Of a DNA stretch of 64,000 nt, positions 33,156 to 42,961 are shown piece by piece; position 1 is the first letter of the stretch, and each line of letters opens with the position of its first letter. Under the pieces are notes generated by a model. That model had not been told where the DNA came from, did not search any database, and saw only the letters and a program-made list of their open reading frames with translations. This DNA is from Chloroflexi bacterium CFX3 (lineage in GTDB: Bacteria > Chloroflexota > Anaerolineae > Aggregatilineales > UBA2796): the NCBI GenBank assembly GCA_030263685.1, contig SZPJ01000003.1, positions 336,073 through 400,072 of the forward strand, written 5' to 3'. The position numbers and the translations under genes were made by a program.

Positions 33156-33229
33156 TGGGTCGTAGAAGACTCGAACTTCTGACCTCGTCGATGTCAACGA
33201 CGCGCTCTAACCAACTGAGCTAACGACCC
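33156..33229 (-). tRNA. tRNA-Val (anticodon GAC)
   Basis: The reverse complement folds as a cloverleaf: acceptor GGGTCGT/ACGACCC, D-arm GCTC-AGTTGGTTA-GAGC, anticodon stem CGTCG with loop TTGACAT, variable loop AGGTC and T-arm AGAAG-TTCGAGT-CTTCT. The CCA is not encoded. Confidence 0.85.
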
Positions 33230-34426: not shown

Positions 34427-35771
34427 CTAATTGCCGCCCGACTTCGTGTCGTCAAGGCGCACAGCGCGCTGCACATTCCGCAATTGGCGCAGGCCGCCAT
34501 TGAACAGCCACACCGGAATCATCAGCAGAATGCCGACCGCGCTCACAATTTGGAAGCCGAGACTGCGCCGTTCAAGCGCCACTTCTTCCACACGCGAAGG
34601 CGCTTCATCGTCACCAGCGCGCCCTTGCATCATCACCGCACCGACCACAATCGTCACAATGGCACCACATATCCAAGCGAAGGTGCCAGCCGCTTGCCCA
34701 AAGGCATCGCCTGCCAACACAGCGACTGCCGTCCAGCCGGCAGCCACCAGCGCCAACGGAAACAGCACCTTCCAGCCCAGCGCCATCAAGCGGTCGTAGC
34801 GGATGCGCGGCAGCGTTGCACGCAGCCAGATCATGCCCATCAGGAATAGGATGACCTTCACGCCGAACACAATCGGACCCAAGATCGGGATTTGGTCAAC
34901 CAAGATGAAGTGATAGCCGCCGAAAAAGAGCGCCACAGCCACCACGCTGACCGAGATCATGCTGATGTATTCCGCCATGAAGAACAGGGCGAACTTCATG
35001 CCGCTGTATTCCGTGTGATAGCCGGCGGTCAGCTCTTGCTCTGCTTCGGGCAGGTCAAACGGCGCACGGTTTACCTCTGCCAGCAGCGCCACAAGCAAAA
35101 TAATCGCCGCAACAGGATTCTGGAAAACATACCAGCCCAAGATGGAAGGCGTCGCTTGTGAGTCCACAATCGTTTGCAGGCTCATCGAGCCAGTCACAAT
35201 AATCGGGATGGACATGCTGACGCCTAGGCTCAGTTCATAGCTAACCATCTGTGCTGAAGCGCGTAAGCCGCCCAACATGGAATACTTGTTGTTGCTTGCC
35301 CAGCCCGCCAACACAATGCCATAGCTGCCCAAGCTGAACCATGCCAGCATGAACAGAATGCCTACGTTTACATCGGTCAAGCCCAGCGGCACACGGTACC
35401 ACAAGCCGTCAAACCACGGGATGAGGATGGGCGGACCAAGCGGCACAACTGCCACCACCATAATTGCCGGGATCACTTTCAAGACGGGCGCAATCCAGAA
35501 GATAACGCGATCCGCGCTGCTTGGCGTCACGTCTTCTTTGAAGAATAGCTTGATGGCGTCGGCAATCGGAAACAGCAAGCCCAATGGACCTGCGCGATTC
35601 GGACCGAGCCGATCTTGAATGAAGGCGATAAAACGGCGCTCCAGCAGCGTGGTGTAGGCAAAGCCCGTCAGCAGTGTGATGAAGATCAACAAGCTGATAA
35701 CCACAGCACGGATCACGCCGCAGCCGCCCGAAGCGGCGCAGTCTATGATCAGGTTTGGATCGATGTTAAAC
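34427..35771 (-). CDS. nuoH: NADH-quinone oxidoreductase subunit H
   Basis: 'FIAFIQDRLGPNRAGPLGLLFPIADAIKLFFKED' is NuoH/ND1. The start is at MFNIDP, overlapping the nuoG stop by a few nt. Confidence 0.9.
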
Positions 35772-38246
35772 ATGCTCTGCGACCTGCACTTTCTCCACAG
35801 TGGCGCTGACTGGCACATCAGGCAGCACGGCGCCCAAATTACGCGCCACCAACACGGCACCTTTCGGCACGCTGACCGCAATACGCGCCTTCAAGGCGAC
35901 GGCGCCGCTCGCTAGGCGCACTTCCACAATCTCGCCCTCGCTGATGCCAAGCGCTTTAGCATCTTCCCAGTTTAGCAGCGCATAAGGCGCCGGAATGTGT
36001 GAATGCAGCAGCGCCGCACTGGCGGCAAAGGTTGGCTTGCGGTCATAGAGTTCCGTGATCGGCACAATCAGCAGTTCACCCTTGCCCACCTTAGGCAGTT
36101 TGGCAGCCTTCACTTTCTCCGCCTTCACCGTCTCGCCACGCTCAGCGGCAGTTGCCCACTGCACGCCTAGCCCGCCTTTGTTATCGTAGGCTGTGCCGCC
36201 ATAGTAGAGGTCAGCGCCGCCCACATCCGGGAACTGCTTTTCGACCTTTGCCAAAGTCGGGTAGCTCATTTGGGCGTAGATTGGCACGTTTTGCGTGATG
36301 CTCTGCATGACTGCTGCCGCTGAAAGTTTTGGCTTTGCGCCGCCCAGCAGCTTGCCAAGTTCGGCAAAGGCACGCCAGTCAGGGCGTGTATGCTCAAGCG
36401 GCGTTTGCGCGGTGTAGAAACGCTGCACACGGCGCTCACCGTTGGTGAATGTGCCATCGCGCTCAGCGAAACTTTGGCGCGGCAGCACAACATCTGCCTG
36501 CTGTGCGGTTGCCGTCAGGAACAGCTCCGAGACGACGAGGAAGGTATCCTTGCGCGCTTGCAAGGCGGCTGCGCTCAGCGCGTCACTGCCGATCAAGTCG
36601 GCATCGGCAAGCAACAGCACCTTAGGCAGCTGCTCAAGCAAGGACTCGGTCGCTTCTGCCGAATAGCCTAGATCAAAAGCACCCTGCGTGTTAGCGCCTG
36701 CCCACACACCGATCAAGCCGTTGTTAGGCTTGCCATAATGCCCTGTCTCGATCAGCTTGTTGGCAGCCGCCTGCATCAGGGCAGCGTGCGCGGCGCGATC
36801 CATCCCTTCACCACCTGCGAGGAGGATGACATTGGTCAGCCCATCAAGGTTCAGGGCGTTCAGGGCATCCACTTCGCCGCCATAATTCGGGCGGATGATG
36901 TCACCCTTGCCCTTCACAAAACGATCCAGCTCCGTGTAGCGCGCATTGATGGTGATCAGGCGCACACCGCGATCTGCGGCAACTTTGGCGCGCAAATACC
37001 AGATGGGCGCTTCTTCTTCAAGGTCGGTGGCAACCACAACAATCGCGTCGCCCTTACCCAAATCCTTGAAGTTTGTGCCAACGCCCACACCAACGGCTGC
37101 CACCTGTGCTGCGCCCGTCAAGCGGTAGGGATAGACGCCTAGCTGCGCGCCGCCAACATGCTGCACCAATTGGCGCAGTTCCCACAAGTCCTCGTTGGAG
37201 AGCATTCCGCCAGCAATCGCGCCGACGCTGGTGCCGGCTGCCTGCATTTGCTCCGCGATGACACTCAGCGCCTTTTCCCATGTGGCAGGCACCAGTTTTC
37301 CGTTGTGGCGCACCAGTGGACGGCTCAGGCGCTCGGCATGGCGTGCGTGGTGATGCCCAAAGCGCCCTTTGTCGCAAATCCACGTCTCGTTCACGCCCTC
37401 ATGCTGGCGCGGCATAATGCGCTTCACAACGATCTTGCCGCCGGCTTCACGGTCTAGGCGCGTGCTGGCACTGGTGTTGCAGCCAACGGGGCAGTGTGGG
37501 CAAAGGCTTGGCACTTCGGTGAGTTCCCACGGGCGTGCGCCAAAGCGGAAATCAGCAGTGGTGAGCGCGCCGACGGGACAAATATCAGTGGTGTTGCCGC
37601 TGAAGTAGGTATCGAAAGGTGGATTGCTGGTCGTCACGATCTGGAGGCGGCGTCCGCGCTCGTGGAAGGCAAGCACTGCATCGCCCACATATTCTTCTTG
37701 GAAGCGCGTGCAGCGCGCACACTGAATGCAGCGCTCACGGTCGAGGAAGATCAGATCGCCCAGTGGATAGTGCTTGGCAAGGTGCATCTTCTCATCAAAG
37801 ACGAAACGGCTTTCGCCTGCACCGTGCTGCATGGTCAGGTTTTGCAGTGGACACTCGCCGCCTTTATCGCAAACAGGGCAATCTAACGGGTGGCTGGTCA
37901 GGATGAACTCGATAATGTCATCGCGGGCAACCTTCACTGCCTCCGTGGTCGTCCGCATGGTCATGCCGTCAGTGACGGTCTGCGTGCAGGCAGTGGCAAG
38001 TTTAGGTTGCCAACGCACCTTGAGTTTGCCGTTTTCGTCGGTCAGAAATTCGCCACTGGCGCGATCTATCTCAACCTGACCCAGTTCAACGAGGCACATG
38101 CGACACATGCCGACAGGTGCTAATTTAGGATGATAGCAAAAGACGGGAACATCATTCCCATGCAACTTTGCCGCATCCACAAGGTTCATGCCCTTCGGGA
38201 CGCGGTATTCAACGTCATCAATAAACAGGCGAACAGTGTCAACCAT
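35766..38246 (-). CDS. nuoG: NADH-quinone oxidoreductase subunit G (long form)
   Basis: N-terminal 2Fe-2S and 4Fe-4S motifs ('CYHPKLAPVGMCRMCLVE', 'HPLDCPVCDKGGECPLQ', 'CIQCARCTRF') are followed by a molybdopterin-like domain. The start is at MVDTV (38246). Confidence 0.9.
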   Translation of the reverse strand: MVDTVRLFIDDVEYRVPKGMNLVDAAKLHGNDVPVFCYHPKLAPVGMCRMCLVELGQVEIDRASGEFLTDENGKLKVRWQPKLATACTQTVTDGMTMRTTTEAVKVARDDIIEFILTSHPLDCPVCDKGGECPLQNLTMQHGAGESRFVFDEKMHLAKHYPLGDLIFLDRERCIQCARCTRFQEEYVGDAVLAFHERGRRLQIVTTSNPPFDTYFSGNTTDICPVGALTTADFRFGARPWELTEVPSLCPHCPVGCNTSASTRLDREAGGKIVVKRIMPRQHEGVNETWICDKGRFGHHHARHAERLSRPLVRHNGKLVPATWEKALSVIAEQMQAAGTSVGAIAGGMLSNEDLWELRQLVQHVGGAQLGVYPYRLTGAAQVAAVGVGVGTNFKDLGKGDAIVVVATDLEEEAPIWYLRAKVAADRGVRLITINARYTELDRFVKGKGDIIRPNYGGEVDALNALNLDGLTNVILLAGGEGMDRAAHAALMQAAANKLIETGHYGKPNNGLIGVWAGANTQGAFDLGYSAEATESLLEQLPKVLLLADADLIGSDALSAAALQARKDTFLVVSELFLTATAQQADVVLPRQSFAERDGTFTNGERRVQRFYTAQTPLEHTRPDWRAFAELGKLLGGAKPKLSAAAVMQSITQNVPIYAQMSYPTLAKVEKQFPDVGGADLYYGGTAYDNKGGLGVQWATAAERGETVKAEKVKAAKLPKVGKGELLIVPITELYDRKPTFAASAALLHSHIPAPYALLNWEDAKALGISEGEIVEVRLASGAVALKARIAVSVPKGAVLVARNLGAVLPDVPVSATVEKVQVAEHV

Positions 38247-38640
38247 GAAAGTGTGCCTCCGTCTCTGGATTGTATACATCACGCTTTATCTGCACGTTTT
38301 CCACCAACATCAAGCCATATTTGCCAAGTGCCTTAAGTTGATCGAACACTGTGCGCGCACCTAGCTCACGGATGCTCTCACGAAGTGTTGCATCGTGAAC
38401 ATTGATGGTGTGAATATCTATTTGGTATGGGTAGACTTCAAACACAAGGTCGCCATCATTCTGAAGTGTGTGCGTGCCTAAGGCAAGCGCCCAACCCTGA
38501 TCAGAACGCAACGCCCGAAATGCGATATGGGAATTATCCTGAACAGGCTGCCATGTGATGCCAAGCAGTGTGCTAAGCTCCTCAGCAAACACATCAAGCG
38601 GTGTTTGGGCTTGAATAAAGATTGACAGGTCTCTAGACAT
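38239..38640 (-). CDS. Hypothetical 133-aa protein embedded in the nuo operon. Its stop overlaps the nuoG start as ATGGTTGA.
   Basis: Intact ORF with no recognisable motif. It overlaps the nuoG start by 8 nt, indicating translational coupling. Confidence 0.5.
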   Translation of the reverse strand: MSRDLSIFIQAQTPLDVFAEELSTLLGITWQPVQDNSHIAFRALRSDQGWALALGTHTLQNDGDLVFEVYPYQIDIHTINVHDATLRESIRELGARTVFDQLKALGKYGLMLVENVQIKRDVYNPETEAHFHG

Positions 38641-38733
38641 TAGGTTTCATCACTTCCTGCCACAGGGCTAAAATGGTGACTCACATCAAAAGAGTTTCCA
38701 ACTACACGCAACACATCTAGTTTACCCTCAATA

Positions 38734-39069
38734 TTATTGCACCCCTGAGATGCGCCGAAAAGCACGTTCAATCTCTAGTTCATCAAGTGCTGTACCACGC
38801 ACATCTAGAATAATGTGTCGCGCCTGTCCACCACCTCTTAACGCTTGCTGAACGCAGTTTAGGATAGTTTTACTGGTCGGGCTGGCAGCTAACCGCTTAA
38901 ACTCAGTCGGTACACCATCCACAAGAGCATCAGGGTGACGTCCATCCCCTGTTTCTGGTAGTGCTTTTACATGACATCCTCGTTCAACAAGATATATTGC
39001 CAAAGCTCGTTCATCTTCTGAGAACGCCCGTTCAGACTCGTCAATTGTACCTTGCAGTGGTAGCATCAC
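38734..39069 (-). CDS. Hypothetical 111-aa protein with a PD-(D/E)xK-like motif; small Hjc/YraN-like nuclease fold (tentative)
   Basis: 'RGCHVKALPETGDGRHPDALVDGVPTEFKRL' resembles the Gly-rich loop ... PD ... ExK arrangement of small restriction-endonuclease-fold proteins. Its start overlaps the upstream stop as ATGA. Confidence 0.45.
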   Translation of the reverse strand: MMLPLQGTIDESERAFSEDERALAIYLVERGCHVKALPETGDGRHPDALVDGVPTEFKRLAASPTSKTILNCVQQALRGGGQARHIILDVRGTALDELEIERAFRRISGVQ

Positions 39070-39578
39070 ACACTCTGTGTGCAGCGCCGCAGCCCTTCTA
39101 GGGCGCGTTCTGCCAGAATGCTGTGAATGTAGCCCCAGTCCGTCTCACCCGCCGCCGAAATCAGATGTAAGCCCCTCTGAAAATCTTCGGCTGCCGCCAC
39201 CTGATCGCCGTAGTCGAGCAGTGCCTCGCCGCGCAGCACATAGTTTATCGGATTATCGGGCGCGGCGGAAATCGCAAGTTCTAAGGCAAGGATGCGCTCC
39301 GTTAAATTATTTGCCCGTGCGGCTTGCCACCAACTCCGTTTCTTTGGCTTCTCTGCTTCATCCTCTAAAGCGACATCGGTTGGGACGGCGAATACGTCAG
39401 GCGCTAGCCATGCCTCCGAAAGTTCGGCTGGCACTTCAGGCGCACGCGCAGACTCGGTCAGATTTTCCGCCGAGTCCACCTCAGCCGCACGCCTTTCGCT
39501 GCTAGTCTCCATCCGCGGTGAATCGGCATCTTCGTTGGAGTCGGTTGATGTTGGCAGATTGCGTTCGACTTCAGACAT
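39066..39578 (-). CDS. Hypothetical 170-aa protein: acidic, low-complexity N-terminal half plus a C-terminal TPR-like helical hairpin
   Basis: N-terminus 'STDSNEDADSPRMETSSERRAAEVDSAENLTESARAPEVPAELSE' is rich in D/E/S. The C-terminus 'NYVLRGEALLDYGDQVAAAEDFQRGLHL' is TPR-like. It lies 61 nt downstream of the nuoF stop. Confidence 0.5.
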   Translation of the reverse strand: MSEVERNLPTSTDSNEDADSPRMETSSERRAAEVDSAENLTESARAPEVPAELSEAWLAPDVFAVPTDVALEDEAEKPKKRSWWQAARANNLTERILALELAISAAPDNPINYVLRGEALLDYGDQVAAAEDFQRGLHLISAAGETDWGYIHSILAERALEGLRRCTQSV

Positions 39579-39639
39579 GAGCTAATCCTTAAAGCAGGGC
39601 GCGGCGTAACACGCCCTGCTGTTATGCATAGCGAATTGC

Positions 39640-40953
39640 CTAGTCACCGGCGACGGCAGCCGCCTCAGCCGCTGGTTTGCGGGCAGGTGCTTTGGTGGCT
39701 GGCACGGGCTTGGCTGGCTCTACATAGGCGTAGAACTCATCACGCCAATACTTCAGGGCGCTCAGCACTGGGCTGGTGGCAAAATCGCCTAGCGCGCATA
39801 GGCTTTTGCCCTGCATTTGGACAGCCACCGACTCAATCAGGGCAACATCTGCCTTGGTTGCCGTCTTGTGATAGATTGCCGAGAGGCGCTGTTCCAGCCA
39901 GTAGGTGCCTTCGCGGCAGGGCGTGCATTTGCCGCAGCTTTCATGGCGGAAGAACTTGATCATCTTCAGGGCTGCCCAAACCATATCGGTATCTTCATCC
40001 AAGATGATGACCGACGCCGAACCAAGTGTTGAGCCAAGCGCGGCAACGTCTTCATAGGTCAGTGGCGTATCCAGCACTTTGTCCGTGGCAGGCAGCAGCG
40101 GACCTGAAGCACCGCTGGGCAGAATTGCCTTTAACTGCTTGCCATCGCGCACGCCGCCCGCCAGTTCGATCAGTTGGCGGAAGGTGCTGCCAAGCGGCAG
40201 TTCATAGTTGCCGGGCTTGGCAATATGCCCACTCATGCAGAAGATTTTCGGCCCGGGCGATTTTTCCGTGCCGATGCTCTTATACCACGCCGCGCCGTTC
40301 ACGATGATCGGCGGCACATTGGCGAGAGTCTCCACATTATTGATGACCGTTGGGCGTGCGTACAAGCCCGCCACCGCTGGGAACGGCGGACGCACACGCG
40401 GCTGCCCAAGTTTGCCCTCAATGCTGTTGAGCATGGCACTTTCTTCGCCGCAGATATAGGCGCCGGCGCCCCAGTGTACGTAAATTTCACAGCCCCAGTC
40501 CGCGCCGCCGATTTTTTCACCGACCCAGCCGCCTGCCCGTGCCTTCTCAACCTCGCGCTCGATGTTGAAGCCAATATCCCAGAACTCGCCGCGCACATAG
40601 ATGTAGATGGCGCTTGCCTGAATAGCATAGGCGCAGATCAGCGCACCTTCGATCAGTTGTTGCGTATTCTTCTCTAGGATTTGGCGATCCTTGAAGGTGC
40701 CCGGCTCAGATTCATCAGCGTTGACGACCACATATTTCGGGCCTTCCACCTCTGGCACGAACGACCACTTCATGCCCGCCGAGAAGCCTGCACCGCCGCG
40801 CCCACGCAAGTTGGACTCTTTCACGAGGGCGATCACCTCTTTGGGTGACATGCTCAGTGCTTTCTTCAGTCCTTCATAGCCGCCGTGCTGCACGTAAACA
40901 TCATACGTGCCAATATCGGCGATCTCTTGGTCACGCAGCAAAATGTTCGCCAT
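39640..40953 (-). CDS. nuoF: NADH-quinone oxidoreductase subunit F
   Basis: The NADH/FMN-binding region 'GRGGAGFSAGMKW', the 'CGKCTPCREG' 4Fe-4S motif, and a length of 437 aa. Confidence 0.9.
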   Translation of the reverse strand: MANILLRDQEIADIGTYDVYVQHGGYEGLKKALSMSPKEVIALVKESNLRGRGGAGFSAGMKWSFVPEVEGPKYVVVNADESEPGTFKDRQILEKNTQQLIEGALICAYAIQASAIYIYVRGEFWDIGFNIEREVEKARAGGWVGEKIGGADWGCEIYVHWGAGAYICGEESAMLNSIEGKLGQPRVRPPFPAVAGLYARPTVINNVETLANVPPIIVNGAAWYKSIGTEKSPGPKIFCMSGHIAKPGNYELPLGSTFRQLIELAGGVRDGKQLKAILPSGASGPLLPATDKVLDTPLTYEDVAALGSTLGSASVIILDEDTDMVWAALKMIKFFRHESCGKCTPCREGTYWLEQRLSAIYHKTATKADVALIESVAVQMQGKSLCALGDFATSPVLSALKYWRDEFYAYVEPAKPVPATKAPARKPAAEAAAVAGD

Positions 40954-40959
40954 GATTTT

Positions 40960-41547
40960 TTATAATCCCTCTCCACCCAACTCATCATTGTCTGTGTTGT
41001 CTGTGTCTGTTTTGGCTAACTCAGCGTGTTCTTCAAGCAGGCTTGCCGGCGGTGCGTCTTCCGGTGTGGGTACCTCTAAGGGCGGCGGATTGGCGGCAAG
41101 CGCCAAGCTGAACGCCACCAGTCCACTGAATAACATCAGGCTGAAGCCGCAGACTGCCACCATCGCACCGTTATAGAGCGCCATGCTGCCCGCATAGCCC
41201 ATCCCAAGCAGCGCCATCAGCATCACACCGATCAACGCGCCGCGTCTGCCGCGCCGCCACGCCACTGCTGCACTGCCCACACCGATCAGCAGCACAGGAT
41301 AGATCAGCGCATCGCTCACCAAGCCACCTGTATCGCGCTGCTCTAGGCGCAGCACCAAGCGCTGCGGGTGCGTCATGGTAACCCATGCGGCATCCTCACC
41401 GCGTGGCGAACGCCACTGCATCAGCGTGAGGGCGAGCAGCGCCAGTGCCGCACCCATGAAGGCCAGCAGCAGCAAACCACGCAGCGACTCAAGGGCTGGC
41501 GGGTGCTGTGCTGCCTCAGGCATCGGGATGATCGCGTTTTGTGACAT
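40960..41547 (-). CDS. Hypothetical 4-TM membrane protein embedded between nuoE and nuoF
   Basis: Four hydrophobic helices and an acidic C-terminal tail 'TDTDNTDNDELGGEGL'. Its stop lies 6 nt before the nuoF start. It overlaps the upstream GNAT gene by 32 nt. Confidence 0.5.
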   Translation of the reverse strand: MSQNAIIPMPEAAQHPPALESLRGLLLLAFMGAALALLALTLMQWRSPRGEDAAWVTMTHPQRLVLRLEQRDTGGLVSDALIYPVLLIGVGSAAVAWRRGRRGALIGVMLMALLGMGYAGSMALYNGAMVAVCGFSLMLFSGLVAFSLALAANPPPLEVPTPEDAPPASLLEEHAELAKTDTDNTDNDELGGEGL

Positions 41548-41941
41548 AGTAAATTTGCTCCACGCGATAGCCTGCCTTCTGAAAGAGCGCTAGGCTGGCC
41601 GCATTGTGATGTTCGATTAAGGCGGCGTGAATTTCTAGGTTAAGCCCACGCAAATGTGCCTCTGCTGCCTGAATGAGCGCCATGCCCACGCCGCGCCGCT
41701 GAAAAGCTGGCAACACCGCTAAACGGTTTATCCAGCCCTTGCGCCCGTCCTGTGTAACCAGTGCCACGCCGACCAGTTGATCGTCAGCATAAGCGCCGAG
41801 AGCAGCCTGCCCGTTTGCCTGCTGCTGTGCGAAGCGTTCACGGCTATCGCGCCCTGTATGGCGCACCGTGAGTGCGGCAGCTTGCCACACGCCGATGATG
41901 GCATCATAGTCTGCGGTGCTGAGTAGACGCACGGTAAGCAT
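41516..41941 (-). CDS. GNAT-family N-acetyltransferase
   Basis: 'LAVLPAFQRRGVGMALIQAAE' is acetyl-CoA-binding motif A (Q/RxxGxG/A). 141 aa. It lies 11 nt downstream of the nuoE stop. Confidence 0.75.
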   Translation of the reverse strand: MLTVRLLSTADYDAIIGVWQAAALTVRHTGRDSRERFAQQQANGQAALGAYADDQLVGVALVTQDGRKGWINRLAVLPAFQRRGVGMALIQAAEAHLRGLNLEIHAALIEHHNAASLALFQKAGYRVEQIYYVTKRDHPDA

Positions 41942-42500: not shown

Positions 42501-42758
42501 TTATCCTGCATCGCTGCCGTGTTGTGCAATTAGTTCATCCAGAGCGCTTTCGCCGACTACAACACCACTGCTGTGGAAGCGCTCCACCTCGATTTGACCA
42601 TCTTCAAAAAACTCGACTTCCCAACGCTCGCCCGGCACACTGATGGTCACCATAATTGAATCGCGCACATGCTCTAGACGATACCAAATGTGATGTGTAT
42701 CCAACTGATCCAAAAAGGAAAGTACCTTACCAAGCGCACTTTGTATGCCTATGCTCAT
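42501..42758 (-). CDS. Hypothetical 85-aa protein embedded between nuoD and nuoE
   Basis: No recognisable motif. Its start overlaps the stop of the upstream 68-aa ORF by 4 nt. Confidence 0.4.
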   Translation of the reverse strand: MSIGIQSALGKVLSFLDQLDTHHIWYRLEHVRDSIMVTISVPGERWEVEFFEDGQIEVERFHSSGVVVGESALDELIAQHGSDAG

Positions 42759-42961
42759 TTGTCGAATCTCCGATCTGTTAACAACTTACGGATTGTTCGA
42801 TAACCGGGCAAGCCATTACGCACACCGCGTTCAATGTCTTCCCAAGTCATCTCTTGAAGATCGTCCCAACTCGGCGAGCCTGCTTCAAGAGGAGCATTTT
42901 TAATGCTCCCCTTTTTGCGCTTCAAAATCTCAATGACCTTTTCTTTCGGATCAGGTGACAC
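42755..42961 (-). CDS. Hypothetical 68-aa basic/acidic protein embedded between nuoD and nuoE
   Basis: 'MSPDPKEKVIEILKRKKGSIKNAPLEAGSPSWDDLQEMTWEDIERGV...'. It starts 8 nt after the nuoD stop. Confidence 0.4.
   Translation of the reverse strand: MSPDPKEKVIEILKRKKGSIKNAPLEAGSPSWDDLQEMTWEDIERGVRNGLPGYRTIRKLLTDRRFDK

What the first reader, a model, noticed from the sequence alone, without database searches (positions are those of the whole stretch)
38239..39578. Three-gene cassette (acidic/TPR-like, PD-(D/E)xK-like, unknown) wedged between nuoF and nuoG
The 170-aa protein has a D/E/S-rich, probably disordered N-terminal half and a C-terminal TPR-like hairpin. The 111-aa protein carries 'GDGRHPDALVDGVPTEFKRL', i.e. 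a PD...ExK arrangement after a Gly-rich turn as in Hjc/YraN-like mini-nucleases. The 133-aa protein has no recognisable features and overlaps the nuoG start. The genes are coupled: ATGA overlap, a 94-nt gap, then an 8-nt overlap. An adaptor, a small nuclease-fold protein and an unknown protein form a combination reminiscent of toxin/immunity or abortive-infection-like modules. They are located here in the middle of a respiratory operon. Alternatively, the nuclease fold may have been co-opted as a structural subunit.
Basis: partly seen in the sequence, partly recalled or inferred. Interest (0 to 1): 0.7.

Follow-up and report, generated by a model that had tools for sequence, protein, structure and literature searches.

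The report
Toxin–immunity pair inside Complex I operon
Between nuoF and nuoG of an Anaerolineae bacterium there are two separate things: a small TPR gene that belongs to the operon in this bacterial class, and an inserted, patchily distributed pair made of a stand-alone CdiA-type nuclease toxin and its immunity protein. It is a familiar kind of selfish or defensive module in an unusual place.

Summary
The three ORFs are real and tightly coupled, but they are not one cassette.

- **The 170-aa gene.** Its C-terminal ~75 aa form a 1.5-repeat TPR. A homologue lies between nuoF and nuoG in 41 of 74 related Anaerolineae species, so it belongs to the operon.
- **The 133-aa ORF.** It is the toxin's cognate partner. 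A homologue lies directly downstream of related toxin genes in 20 of 21 testable metagenome loci, plus three more looked up by protein identity.

The pair is an 810-bp, low-GC insertion. It is absent from the closest relatives (NuoF 98% identical) and decayed to pseudogenes in another lineage. It is grafted in so that the immunity ORF ends in the native nuoG leader.

Verdict: a delivery-less toxin–immunity module riding in the nuo operon, not Complex I subunits. It is a new member of a known kind, of moderate interest.

The parts
39066..39578 (-). p170, a lineage-specific nuo-operon gene. It has a variable acidic N-terminal extension and a conserved C-terminal mini-TPR domain.
   Evidence: ORF. 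tblastn finds a homologue between nuoF and nuoG in 41 of 74 species loci. It is not part of the insertion: it is present in L013 and L014, which lack the toxin pair.
39075..39305 (-). Conserved 1.5-repeat TPR domain of p170 (about residues 92-168).
   Evidence: In the alignment of 32 homologues, 20 of 32 members hit Pfam TPR_2 at E up to 1 (best 1.7e-4). The profile hits TPR proteins in the PDB; the best is 3ieg_A at E 6.9e-14.
38262..39071 (-). 810-bp insertion relative to the nearest relatives L013 and L014. It replaces the native p170 stop codon and the ~16-nt spacer in front of the nuoG ribosome-binding site (about 19 nt in all).
   Evidence: blastn breakpoints and junction sequences. GC is 0.46-0.49 against 0.56-0.63 in the flanks. 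GC3 is 0.30 and 0.47 against 0.66-0.71.
38734..39066 (-). Toxin gene T, truncated here to 110-111 aa. It encodes a CdiA_C-family PD-(D/E)xK nuclease domain. Putative catalytic residues are E19, D46, E55 and K57.
38735..38735 (-). Frameshift: one extra A (CAATAATATT against CAATATATT). It creates a TAA stop after residue Q110.
   Evidence: Alignment of the window with L001. All of L001-L006 encode the intact 141-aa protein.
38640..38733 (-). Out-of-frame 3' end of the toxin gene (strands β6-β7 of the fold).
   Evidence: Its translation EGKLDVLRVVGNSFDVSHHFSP matches the family profile at E 3.9e-4. Residues 112-130 are conserved in the family. The model places strands at 118-122 and 127-131.
38239..38640 (-). 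Immunity gene I (133 aa), the cognate partner of the toxin and a member of an uncharacterised family. Its last 7 codons and its stop codon are encoded by the native nuoG leader and first codons.
   Evidence: Homologues lie directly downstream of related toxin genes in L093-L095 (BLASTP 1e-15 to 3e-8) and in 20 of 21 testable metagenome loci. No Pfam or PDB match. dN/dS is about 0.10. Junction shown.
38244..38260 (-). nuoG ribosome-binding site (GGAGG, 38256-38260) and start codon (ATG, 38244-38246). They lie inside the 3' end of I, with an 8-nt ATGGTTGA overlap.
   Evidence: Sequence. The same leader, GGAGGCACACTTTCATGG, is present in the insert-free relative L014.
39640..40953 (-). nuoF, the upstream flank.
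   Evidence: Pfam Complex1_51K, SLBB and NADH_4Fe-4S.
35766..38246 (-). nuoG, the downstream flank. The true start is the ATG at 38246, giving 826 aa.
   Evidence: Pfam domains. Public gene calls give 826 aa.

Best explanation
The region holds two unrelated things.

**(1) p170.** This is a small TPR protein that is a lineage-specific member of the Anaerolineae nuo operon. By inference it is an assembly factor or accessory protein of the NADH-dehydrogenase module.

**(2) The T-I pair.** An 810-bp foreign two-gene module replaced the short spacer between p170 and nuoG.
- T (141 aa when intact) is a stand-alone polymorphic-toxin C-terminal domain of the CdiA_C / PD-(D/E)xK family.
- I (133 aa) is its cognate immunity protein.

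**Inferred mechanism.** T is a metal-dependent RNase that uses E19, D46, E55 and K57. By analogy with its closest solved relative, the B. pseudomallei 1026b CdiA-CT, it is most likely a tRNase. I binds T one-to-one and blocks it.

**Expression.** T has no secretion or delivery domain, so it is not an exported weapon here. The pair has no promoter of its own. It is transcribed with nuo and translated by coupling: TGATG after p170, TAATG between T and I, and ATGGTTGA into nuoG.

**Likely role.** The module most likely persists as a selfish, addiction-like or immunity-providing passenger. Loss of I while T is active would be lethal. A sloppy deletion would also damage nuoG translation. I may additionally protect against the same toxin family delivered by competitors through T5SS, T6SS or T7SS.

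**State in this strain.** In the window strain T is truncated by a frameshift that removes the last two β-strands, while I is intact. The locus therefore now behaves as an orphan immunity gene.
For: **T identity (shown)**
- Pfam CdiA_C scores above its gathering threshold.
- An HMM search of 1.84 billion representative proteins gives 538 relatives. The domain sits at the extreme C-terminus in 149 of the best 151.
- Carrier proteins include TPS+DUF637 CdiA, RHS, eCIS-core, VgrG-linked and WXG100-like proteins.
- The AF2 model has pLDDT 88 and topology β-α-β-β-β-α-β-α-β-β. This equals the topology listed for Bp1026b CdiA-CT, a Mg2+-dependent tRNA-Ala nuclease (PMC9086364).
- Foldseek top hit is 4g6v_A, E 2.4e-5, TM 0.66-0.70.
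- The family profile hits 4g6v_A at E 1.3e-5.
- E19, D46, E55 and K57 are conserved in 139-150 of 151 family members.

**I as partner (shown)**
- p133 homologues lie immediately downstream of toxin relatives in 3 of 3 loci found by protein look-up.
- The same holds in 20 of 21 testable loci that were retrieved by a toxin pattern alone.

**Insertion (shown)**
- The pair is absent from L013 and L014 (NuoF 98% identical) and from L017-L020.
- It is present in L007 and survives as decayed relics in L016.
- GC and GC3 are low compared with the flanks.

**Selection (shown)**
- dN/dS is about 0.10 for I. For T, pN/pS is 0.18/0.77.

**Frameshift (shown)**.

**Own promoter**: no sigma-70-like promoter on the gene strand within or upstream of the pair.

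**p170 (shown)**.
Against: - Nothing was tested biochemically: nuclease activity, toxicity, substrate and T-I binding are all inferred.
- The AF2 model of I is poor (pLDDT 53), so its fold and any likeness to known CdiI proteins are unknown.
- T has been under purifying selection between two lineages. That is not expected for a mere passenger whose toxin is never used.
- Conversely, T is frameshifted in the window and deleted internally in L016.
- The single extra A could be an assembly error rather than a real mutation.
- The gain/loss history is ambiguous.
- Only 64 kb of the genome was seen, so a full-length toxin gene that could recombine with this module cannot be excluded.
- The role of p170 in Complex I rests on gene position only.
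Confidence: 0.8

Rival explanations
1. The pair is a working intracellular toxin-antitoxin or abortive-infection module. T is made inside the cell and held in check by a more labile I. When transcription or translation of the nuo operon collapses (phage attack, energy stress), I decays and T cleaves tRNA, arresting growth.
For: - T has its own start codon and sits in a translationally coupled chain, unlike classical orphan cdiA-CT fragments, which lack initiation signals (PMC3150448).
- T has been kept under purifying selection in two lineages.
- 36 of the 151 best family members are 170 aa or shorter.
- The closest non-nuo relatives, L098 and L099, are stand-alone 136-145-aa genes, each followed by a p133-family immunity gene.
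- Orphan Rhs toxin/immunity pairs have been shown to act as type II TA modules (PMC7043789).
Against: - No PADLOC defence model matches any of the three proteins.
- I has no detectable DNA-binding domain, and no promoter of its own was predicted.
- The module has been lost or has decayed in most relatives, and T is truncated in the window strain.
- Only one relative was found among 2.9 million viral contigs, which says nothing either way.
Confidence: 0.2
2. The pair is a decaying, functionless relic of a past horizontal transfer. It is tolerated because it sits harmlessly in an operon and because a clean deletion must preserve the nuoG start.
For: - T is frameshifted in the window.
- T and I are pseudogene relics in L016.
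- The pair is absent from 73 of 74 species loci.
- Codon composition is atypical for the host.
Against: - Six assemblies 99.9% identical to the window keep T intact.
- The L001 and L007 copies differ at saturated synonymous sites, yet keep 71% amino-acid identity and all catalytic residues.
- I is intact in every copy except L016.
Confidence: 0.12
3. The nuclease-fold protein and its partner have been co-opted as structural or accessory subunits of Complex I.
For: - The pair lies inside the nuo operon and is translationally coupled to nuoG.
- The neighbouring TPR gene really is conserved in the operon.
Against: - The pair is absent from relatives whose NuoF is 98% identical, with otherwise collinear operons.
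- It is present intact in only two lineages.
- It has a foreign composition.
- The catalytic residues are fully retained, which is not expected of a structural co-option.
- The same T-I pair occurs in unrelated genomic contexts, such as next to VgrG or next to rplQ.
Confidence: 0.02

Closest known systems
CdiA-CT(II)/CdiI of Burkholderia pseudomallei 1026b (PDB 4G6V), a PD-(D/E)xK tRNase toxin with its immunity protein
   Same: - Same Pfam family (CdiA_C).
- Same β-α-β-β-β-α-β-α-β-β topology.
- The acidic residues have the same spacing: E19/D46/E55 here against E187/D214/D223 there.
- The GQA motif is conserved.
- The immunity gene lies immediately downstream.
   Different: - Only 16-17% sequence identity.
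- The lysine sits in the canonical E-x-K position (K57) rather than on the following helix (K242).
- T is a stand-alone 141-aa protein with no TPS, FHA or entry domains.
- The immunity protein has no detectable sequence similarity to any solved CdiI.
- The host is a Chloroflexota bacterium, and the genes sit in a respiratory operon.
Orphan cdiA-CT/cdiI and rhs-CT/rhsI modules (Poole et al. 2011, PMC3150448)
   Same: - A toxin C-terminal domain plus its immunity gene, detached from any delivery protein.
- The immunity gene is expressible.
- The toxin part is prone to decay.
   Different: - Classical orphans lie in arrays downstream of a full cdiBAI or rhs locus, keep the VENN or pre-toxin junction, and usually lack translation initiation signals.
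- This one has a start codon and no pre-toxin remnant.
- It is embedded in, and translationally coupled to, a housekeeping operon.
[quoted passage not shown] 2020, PMC7043789)
   Same: A delivery-less polymorphic-toxin domain that is produced inside the cell together with its immunity protein.
   Different: - In Salmonella, expression comes from internal promoters within rhs. Here no promoter of its own is evident, and expression would follow the nuo operon.
- No functional data exist for this pair.
Small TPR assembly or chaperone proteins (for p170 only)
   Same: The 1.5-repeat TPR signature is detected by profile.
   Different: - There is no specific family match.
- The protein is defined by its fixed position between nuoF and nuoG in Anaerolineae.
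- Its function has not been tested.

Membership tests
Pfam PF18451 CdiA_C (PD-(D/E)xK polymorphic-toxin C-terminal domain) | Profile HMM score above the curated gathering threshold | tested here: met
   The truncated window protein scores 34.2 bits against a 26.6 cutoff, E 3e-8. The intact allele P0001 carries a precomputed PF18451 hit.
Pfam PF18451 CdiA_C (PD-(D/E)xK polymorphic-toxin C-terminal domain) | PD-(D/E)xK α/β core with structural similarity to solved CdiA-CT tRNases | tested here: met
Pfam PF18451 CdiA_C (PD-(D/E)xK polymorphic-toxin C-terminal domain) | Conserved catalytic E ... D ... E-x-K residues | tested here: met
   E19, D46, E55 and K57 are present here. They are conserved in 139, 150, 150 and 150 of 151 relatives.
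Pfam PF18451 CdiA_C (PD-(D/E)xK polymorphic-toxin C-terminal domain) | RNase (tRNase) activity and growth inhibition | not testable with these tools
   Inferred only from Bp1026b and E479 (PMC9086364).
Polymorphic toxin system (toxin domain at the C-terminus of a delivered protein, immunity gene downstream) | Cognate immunity gene immediately downstream of the toxin domain | tested here: met
   A p133-family ORF lies directly downstream in L093-L095 and in 20 of 21 testable metagenome loci.
Polymorphic toxin system (toxin domain at the C-terminus of a delivered protein, immunity gene downstream) | N-terminal secretion or delivery region (TPS/FHA, RHS, LXG/WXG100, PAAR, etc.) on the same protein | tested here: not met
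   The family domain starts at residue ~5 of the 141-aa protein. Relatives do carry such regions, but this copy does not.
CDI system (cdiBAI) | CdiB transporter and filamentous CdiA encoded at the locus | tested here: not met
   The neighbours are nuo genes. There is no second toxin or immunity copy in the 64-kb window. The rest of the genome was not seen.
Classical orphan cdiA-CT/cdiI module | Lies downstream of a full-length toxin locus, retains the pre-toxin (VENN-type) junction, and lacks initiation signals | tested here: not met
   The module is in the nuo operon. The N-terminus reads MLPLQGTIDESER with no VENN motif. A start codon is present. Criteria are taken from PMC3150448.
Type II toxin-antitoxin system | Autoregulated own promoter, and an antitoxin with a DNA-binding domain | tested here: not met
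   I has no HTH, RHH or AbrB-type Pfam hit. No promoter-like site lies on the gene strand in or before the pair. The consensus scan is crude.
Type II toxin-antitoxin system | Labile antitoxin and intracellular activation of the toxin | not testable with these tools
   Needs protein stability and toxicity assays.
Respiratory Complex I subunit or accessory protein | Co-conservation with nuo genes across the clade | tested here: not met
   For T and I, only 1 of 74 species loci has them, and those are relics. They are absent from relatives with 98%-identical NuoF. For p170 the feature is partly met: 41 of 74 loci.
TPR repeat proteins (p170 C-terminal domain) | Helix-turn-helix TPR signature detectable by profile | tested here: met
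   20 of 32 homologues hit Pfam TPR_2 and 15 of 32 hit TPR_9. The family profile hits TPR structures in the PDB.

The most novel reading that the evidence does not exclude
The position is functional rather than accidental. Because I is wired by translational coupling between the NADH-module genes and nuoG, the pair could act as a sentinel that ties cell survival to continued expression of the Complex I operon. That would be an operon-addiction or abortive-infection switch triggered by a collapse of respiration-gene translation. Alternatively, T could have been tamed into an RNase that processes the long nuo transcript. A second variable two-gene insert (o68/o85) in the same operon would then mark the Anaerolineae nuo operon as a preferred docking site for such modules.
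Probability: 0.08. Interest if true: 0.65.

Novelty: new member of a known kind. Interest (0 to 1): 0.3.

Why it matters
- **Operon embedding.** It shows that a delivery-less polymorphic-toxin/immunity pair can be grafted seamlessly into an essential respiratory operon. The insert supplies the last codon and the stop of the upstream gene, and it borrows the leader of the downstream gene for its own stop. This is a tidy natural example of how selfish modules secure expression and resist deletion.
- **New immunity family.** It defines a previously unannotated immunity family that partners a widespread CdiA_C subfamily used by T5SS, T6SS, T7SS-like and eCIS-associated toxins.
- **Operon-specific genes.** It separates out a conserved TPR gene, and in passing a GNAT gene, specific to Anaerolineae nuo operons. 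These are the better candidates for unknown Complex I accessory factors.
- **Annotation.** It warns against reading operon-embedded small ORFs as subunits.

Tried and rejected
- **Sequence search of the 111-aa ORF against the PDB.** It gave only chance hits. A two-sequence profile also failed. A 38-sequence family profile was needed to reach 4g6v_A.
- **Word-indexed protein searches.** For both T and I they found only the window lineage and one other, so the alignment for I was too shallow.
- **AF2 model of I.** It has pLDDT 53. It was not used for fold search, because matches would be meaningless.
- **Profile of five I homologues against PDB and Pfam.** Nothing above noise.
- **PADLOC and PHROGs.** No meaningful hits for any of the small proteins.
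- **First metagenome scan.** An 8-sequence alignment worked.
- **Viral contigs.** One distant relative only, so a phage vector is not indicated.
- **Hjc/YraN-like mini-nuclease reading.** Rejected. Hjc appears only as a weak Foldseek hit (E 0.26), far below the CdiA-CT match.
- **Single three-gene cassette.** Rejected on the distribution.
- **Recent transfer between the two insert-bearing lineages.** Rejected, because synonymous sites between the two copies are saturated.
- **Gain/loss history.** I could not decide between one ancient insertion with several losses and separate acquisitions.

Full report
**1. Setting**

The window is 99.93% identical to a contig of an Anaerolineae (Chloroflexota) metagenome-assembled genome, GCA_034436575.1. 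Over 20.4 kb the two differ by 13 substitutions and 2 single-base indels. NCBI names the identical 133-aa protein as coming from 'Chloroflexi bacterium CFX4'.

The nuo operon runs on the minus strand: nuoB, C, D, then two small ORFs (o68, o85), nuoE, a GNAT acetyltransferase, a membrane protein (m195), nuoF, the three ORFs of the finding, then nuoG, H and I.

**2. The observation**

- The 8-nt overlap of the 133-aa ORF with nuoG is correct. It reads ATGGTTGA, and the true nuoG start is the ATG at 38246.
- The first junction reads GTGTGATG. It is a GTGA or TGATG overlap, not ATGA.
- The '94-nt gap' is not a gap.

Public gene calls from six independent assemblies of the same organism give a 141-aa protein (P0001). 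It is identical to the window's ORF up to residue 110 and then continues with YIEGKLDVLRVVGNSFDVSHHFSPVAGSDET. Its TAA overlaps the ATG of the 133-aa gene.

The window has one extra A at position 38735. This makes a premature TAA. It is the only protein-changing difference in 20.4 kb, because every encoded protein compared is 100% identical to L001. The out-of-frame tail still matches the family profile. Whether the extra A is a real mutation or an assembly error cannot be told from the sequence.

**3. One gene plus a pair, not a trio**

I fetched nuoF loci from 80 species-representative genomes, all Anaerolineae or related Chloroflexota. I then searched them with every protein of the operon.
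- A homologue of the C-terminal ~75 residues of the 170-aa protein lies between nuoF and nuoG in 41 of 74 loci, down to 62% NuoF identity. The acidic N-terminal half is a variable extension.
- The 141-aa and 133-aa genes are found only in three places: the window lineage, a second lineage known from metagenomes (L007/L008), and, as relics, L016.
- In L007/L008, NuoF is 91% identical, T about 71-74% and I 71%.

The two nearest relatives, L013 and L014 (NuoF 98%), have the 170-aa gene followed by 28-29 nt and then nuoG.

The DNA alignment breaks at window positions 39072 and 38261, which defines an 810-bp insertion (38262-39071). It has GC 0.46-0.49 against 0.56-0.63 around it. Its GC3 is 0.30 (T) and 0.47 (I) against 0.66-0.71 for the nuo genes.

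The graft is seamless.
- The insert supplies the last codon (V170) and the TGA stop of the 170-aa gene.
- The 133-aa ORF runs into the native nuoG leader, GGAGGCACACTTTCATGGTTGA. Its last seven codons and its stop are therefore host sequence.
- This tail is identical in both lineages and is absent from distant family members.

**4. The toxin (T)**

*Family.* The window ORF hits Pfam CdiA_C (PF18451) above threshold. A profile of the two full-length proteins, searched against 1.84 billion representative proteins, found 538 relatives. In 149 of the best 151, the domain sits within 15 residues of the C-terminus of proteins 90-2214 aa long.

*Carrier proteins.* These include a TPS+DUF637 CdiA, an RHS-repeat protein and an eCIS-core protein. 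Among the metagenome loci there are also a VgrG-linked effector, WXG100-like fusions and a PrsW-like fusion. This is the signature of a polymorphic-toxin domain.

*Structure.* An AlphaFold2 model from a 12-sequence alignment has mean pLDDT 88 and topology β-α-β-β-β-α-β-α-β-β.
- Foldseek's only significant PDB hit is the B. pseudomallei 1026b CdiA-CT (4g6v_A, E 2.4e-5, TM 0.66-0.70). Weak hits to restriction enzymes, XPF, Hjc and MUS81 follow.
- A family profile also reaches 4g6v_A by sequence (E 1.3e-5).

*Comparison with Bp1026b.* The review PMC9086364 lists Bp1026b CdiA-CT as a Mg2+-dependent nuclease of tRNA-Ala with the same topology and active-site residues E187, D214, D223 and K242. The spacings E-27-D-9-(D/E) are identical to E19-D46-E55 here. 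The lysine differs: K57 lies in the canonical E-x-K position.

*Effect of the frameshift.* It removes residues 111-141. These include strands 118-122 and 127-131 and the conserved G114, D117, R120 and G123, so the window's copy is probably inactive (inference).

**5. The partner (I)**

The 133-aa protein has no Pfam, NCBIfam, PADLOC or PDB relative. Its AlphaFold model is unreliable (pLDDT 53 from two sequences).

Its role follows from gene linkage.
- Three distant toxin relatives, located by exact-protein look-up in unrelated contexts, are each followed at once by a 115-129-aa gene. One lies beside rplQ/rpoA and one beside HNH and ParE genes.
- These downstream genes are homologous to p133 over their full length (BLASTP 1e-15, 6e-12 and 3e-8).
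- In 23 further metagenome loci retrieved with a toxin peptide pattern alone, a match to the p133-family profile lies directly downstream on the same strand in 20.
- In two of the other three, the contig ends at the toxin's stop.

T and I are therefore a conserved cognate pair in toxin-then-immunity order.

**6. Selection and history**

Between the window lineage and L007, I has dN/dS of about 0.10 and T has pN 0.18 against pS 0.77. Both have been kept as proteins.

L016 carries wreckage of both genes at the same site.
- The toxin has lost its E-x-K to Q-A-R segment.
- The immunity gene has lost its first two thirds.

A neighbour-joining tree of concatenated NuoD-H places the insert-bearing lineages in both subclades of one tight clade, interleaved with insert-free ones.

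In favour of one old insertion followed by repeated loss:
- the same site and an identical right junction;
- saturated synonymous divergence, at least as great as in the flanking genes;
- the relics in L016.

In favour of separate or lateral acquisition:
- a homologous spacer, GGCACATGTYGGAGGCAT, shared by the empty sites of both subclades;
- different left junctions;
- GC3 that is still far from the host's.

I leave this open.

**7. The TPR gene (p170)**

In an alignment of 32 homologues, 20 hit Pfam TPR_2 and 15 hit TPR_9. The family profile hits many TPR structures. The conserved pattern is PDxPxNYxLRGE...G....A..DF...L.......WGY......DRA..GLR.C.

Its fixed position in 41 of 74 operons makes it, rather than the nuclease, the candidate Complex I-associated protein. 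That role is inferred from position only.

**8. Mechanism and role**

*Shown:* family, fold, catalytic motif, partner linkage, insertion, coupling signals and truncation.

*Inferred:*
- T is a metal-dependent RNase, probably a tRNase, and I neutralises it by binding.
- With no delivery domain, no pre-toxin junction and no promoter of its own, the pair is expressed as part of the nuo transcript and acts only inside the cell.
- The most economical reading is a selfish or immunity-providing passenger that gains expression and deletion-resistance from its position. In the window strain it has already lost its toxin.
- A genuine toxin-antitoxin or abortive-infection role is the main rival. It has precedent in orphan Rhs modules (PMC7043789).
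- Co-option into Complex I is excluded by the distribution.

**9. Comparison and novelty**

The toxin is a clear member of a curated family. The pair differs from classical orphan cdiA-CT/cdiI modules, which sit behind a cdi or rhs locus, keep the VENN junction and lack start signals (PMC3150448).

What is unusual is the location and the precision of the graft into a respiratory operon. The immunity family is unannotated. I rate it a new member of a known kind, with interest about 0.3.

Noticed in passing
window 42501-42961 (-): A second variable two-gene insert lies in the same operon, between nuoD and nuoE. It consists of o68 (42755-42961) and o85 (42501-42758), which overlap by 4 nt, with GC 0.47-0.49. 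It is absent from L013 and present in L014 (91% identity). o85-like genes sit at the same position in L026 and L029. No Pfam, PDB, PADLOC or PHROG match. It may be another toxin/antitoxin-like passenger.
   Followed up: partly
window 41516-41941 (-) and 40960-41547 (-): A GNAT acetyltransferase lies between nuoE and nuoF in 37 of 75 related species loci, and a membrane protein (m195) in 18 of 75. Like the TPR gene, these are lineage-specific residents of Anaerolineae nuo operons with unknown roles.
   Followed up: partly
window ~39593-39621 (-), between the nuoF stop and the p170 start: A strong stem-loop (about -27 kcal/mol, perfect 9-11 bp stem, no T-run). L013 and L014 keep it with paired changes on both arms; L016 and L017 have different hairpins at the same position; L007 has none. 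It matches no Rfam family. It could be an intra-operon mRNA stability or processing element.
   Followed up: partly
window 45888: This is the only other indel between the window and the near-identical public contig. It is one T fewer in a T-run, in the region upstream of the nuoA side of the operon.
   Followed up: no
window 33156-33229 (-): A tRNA gene, the only Rfam gathering-threshold hit in the 64-kb window.
   Followed up: no
L098:4977-5782 and L099:4950-5782: The closest non-nuo relatives of the pair (toxin 50% identical, stand-alone 136-145 aa, followed by a 127-aa immunity gene). They sit next to a dynamin-family GTPase locus in metagenome contigs. This shows that delivery-less copies of the pair occur elsewhere.
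   Followed up: partly
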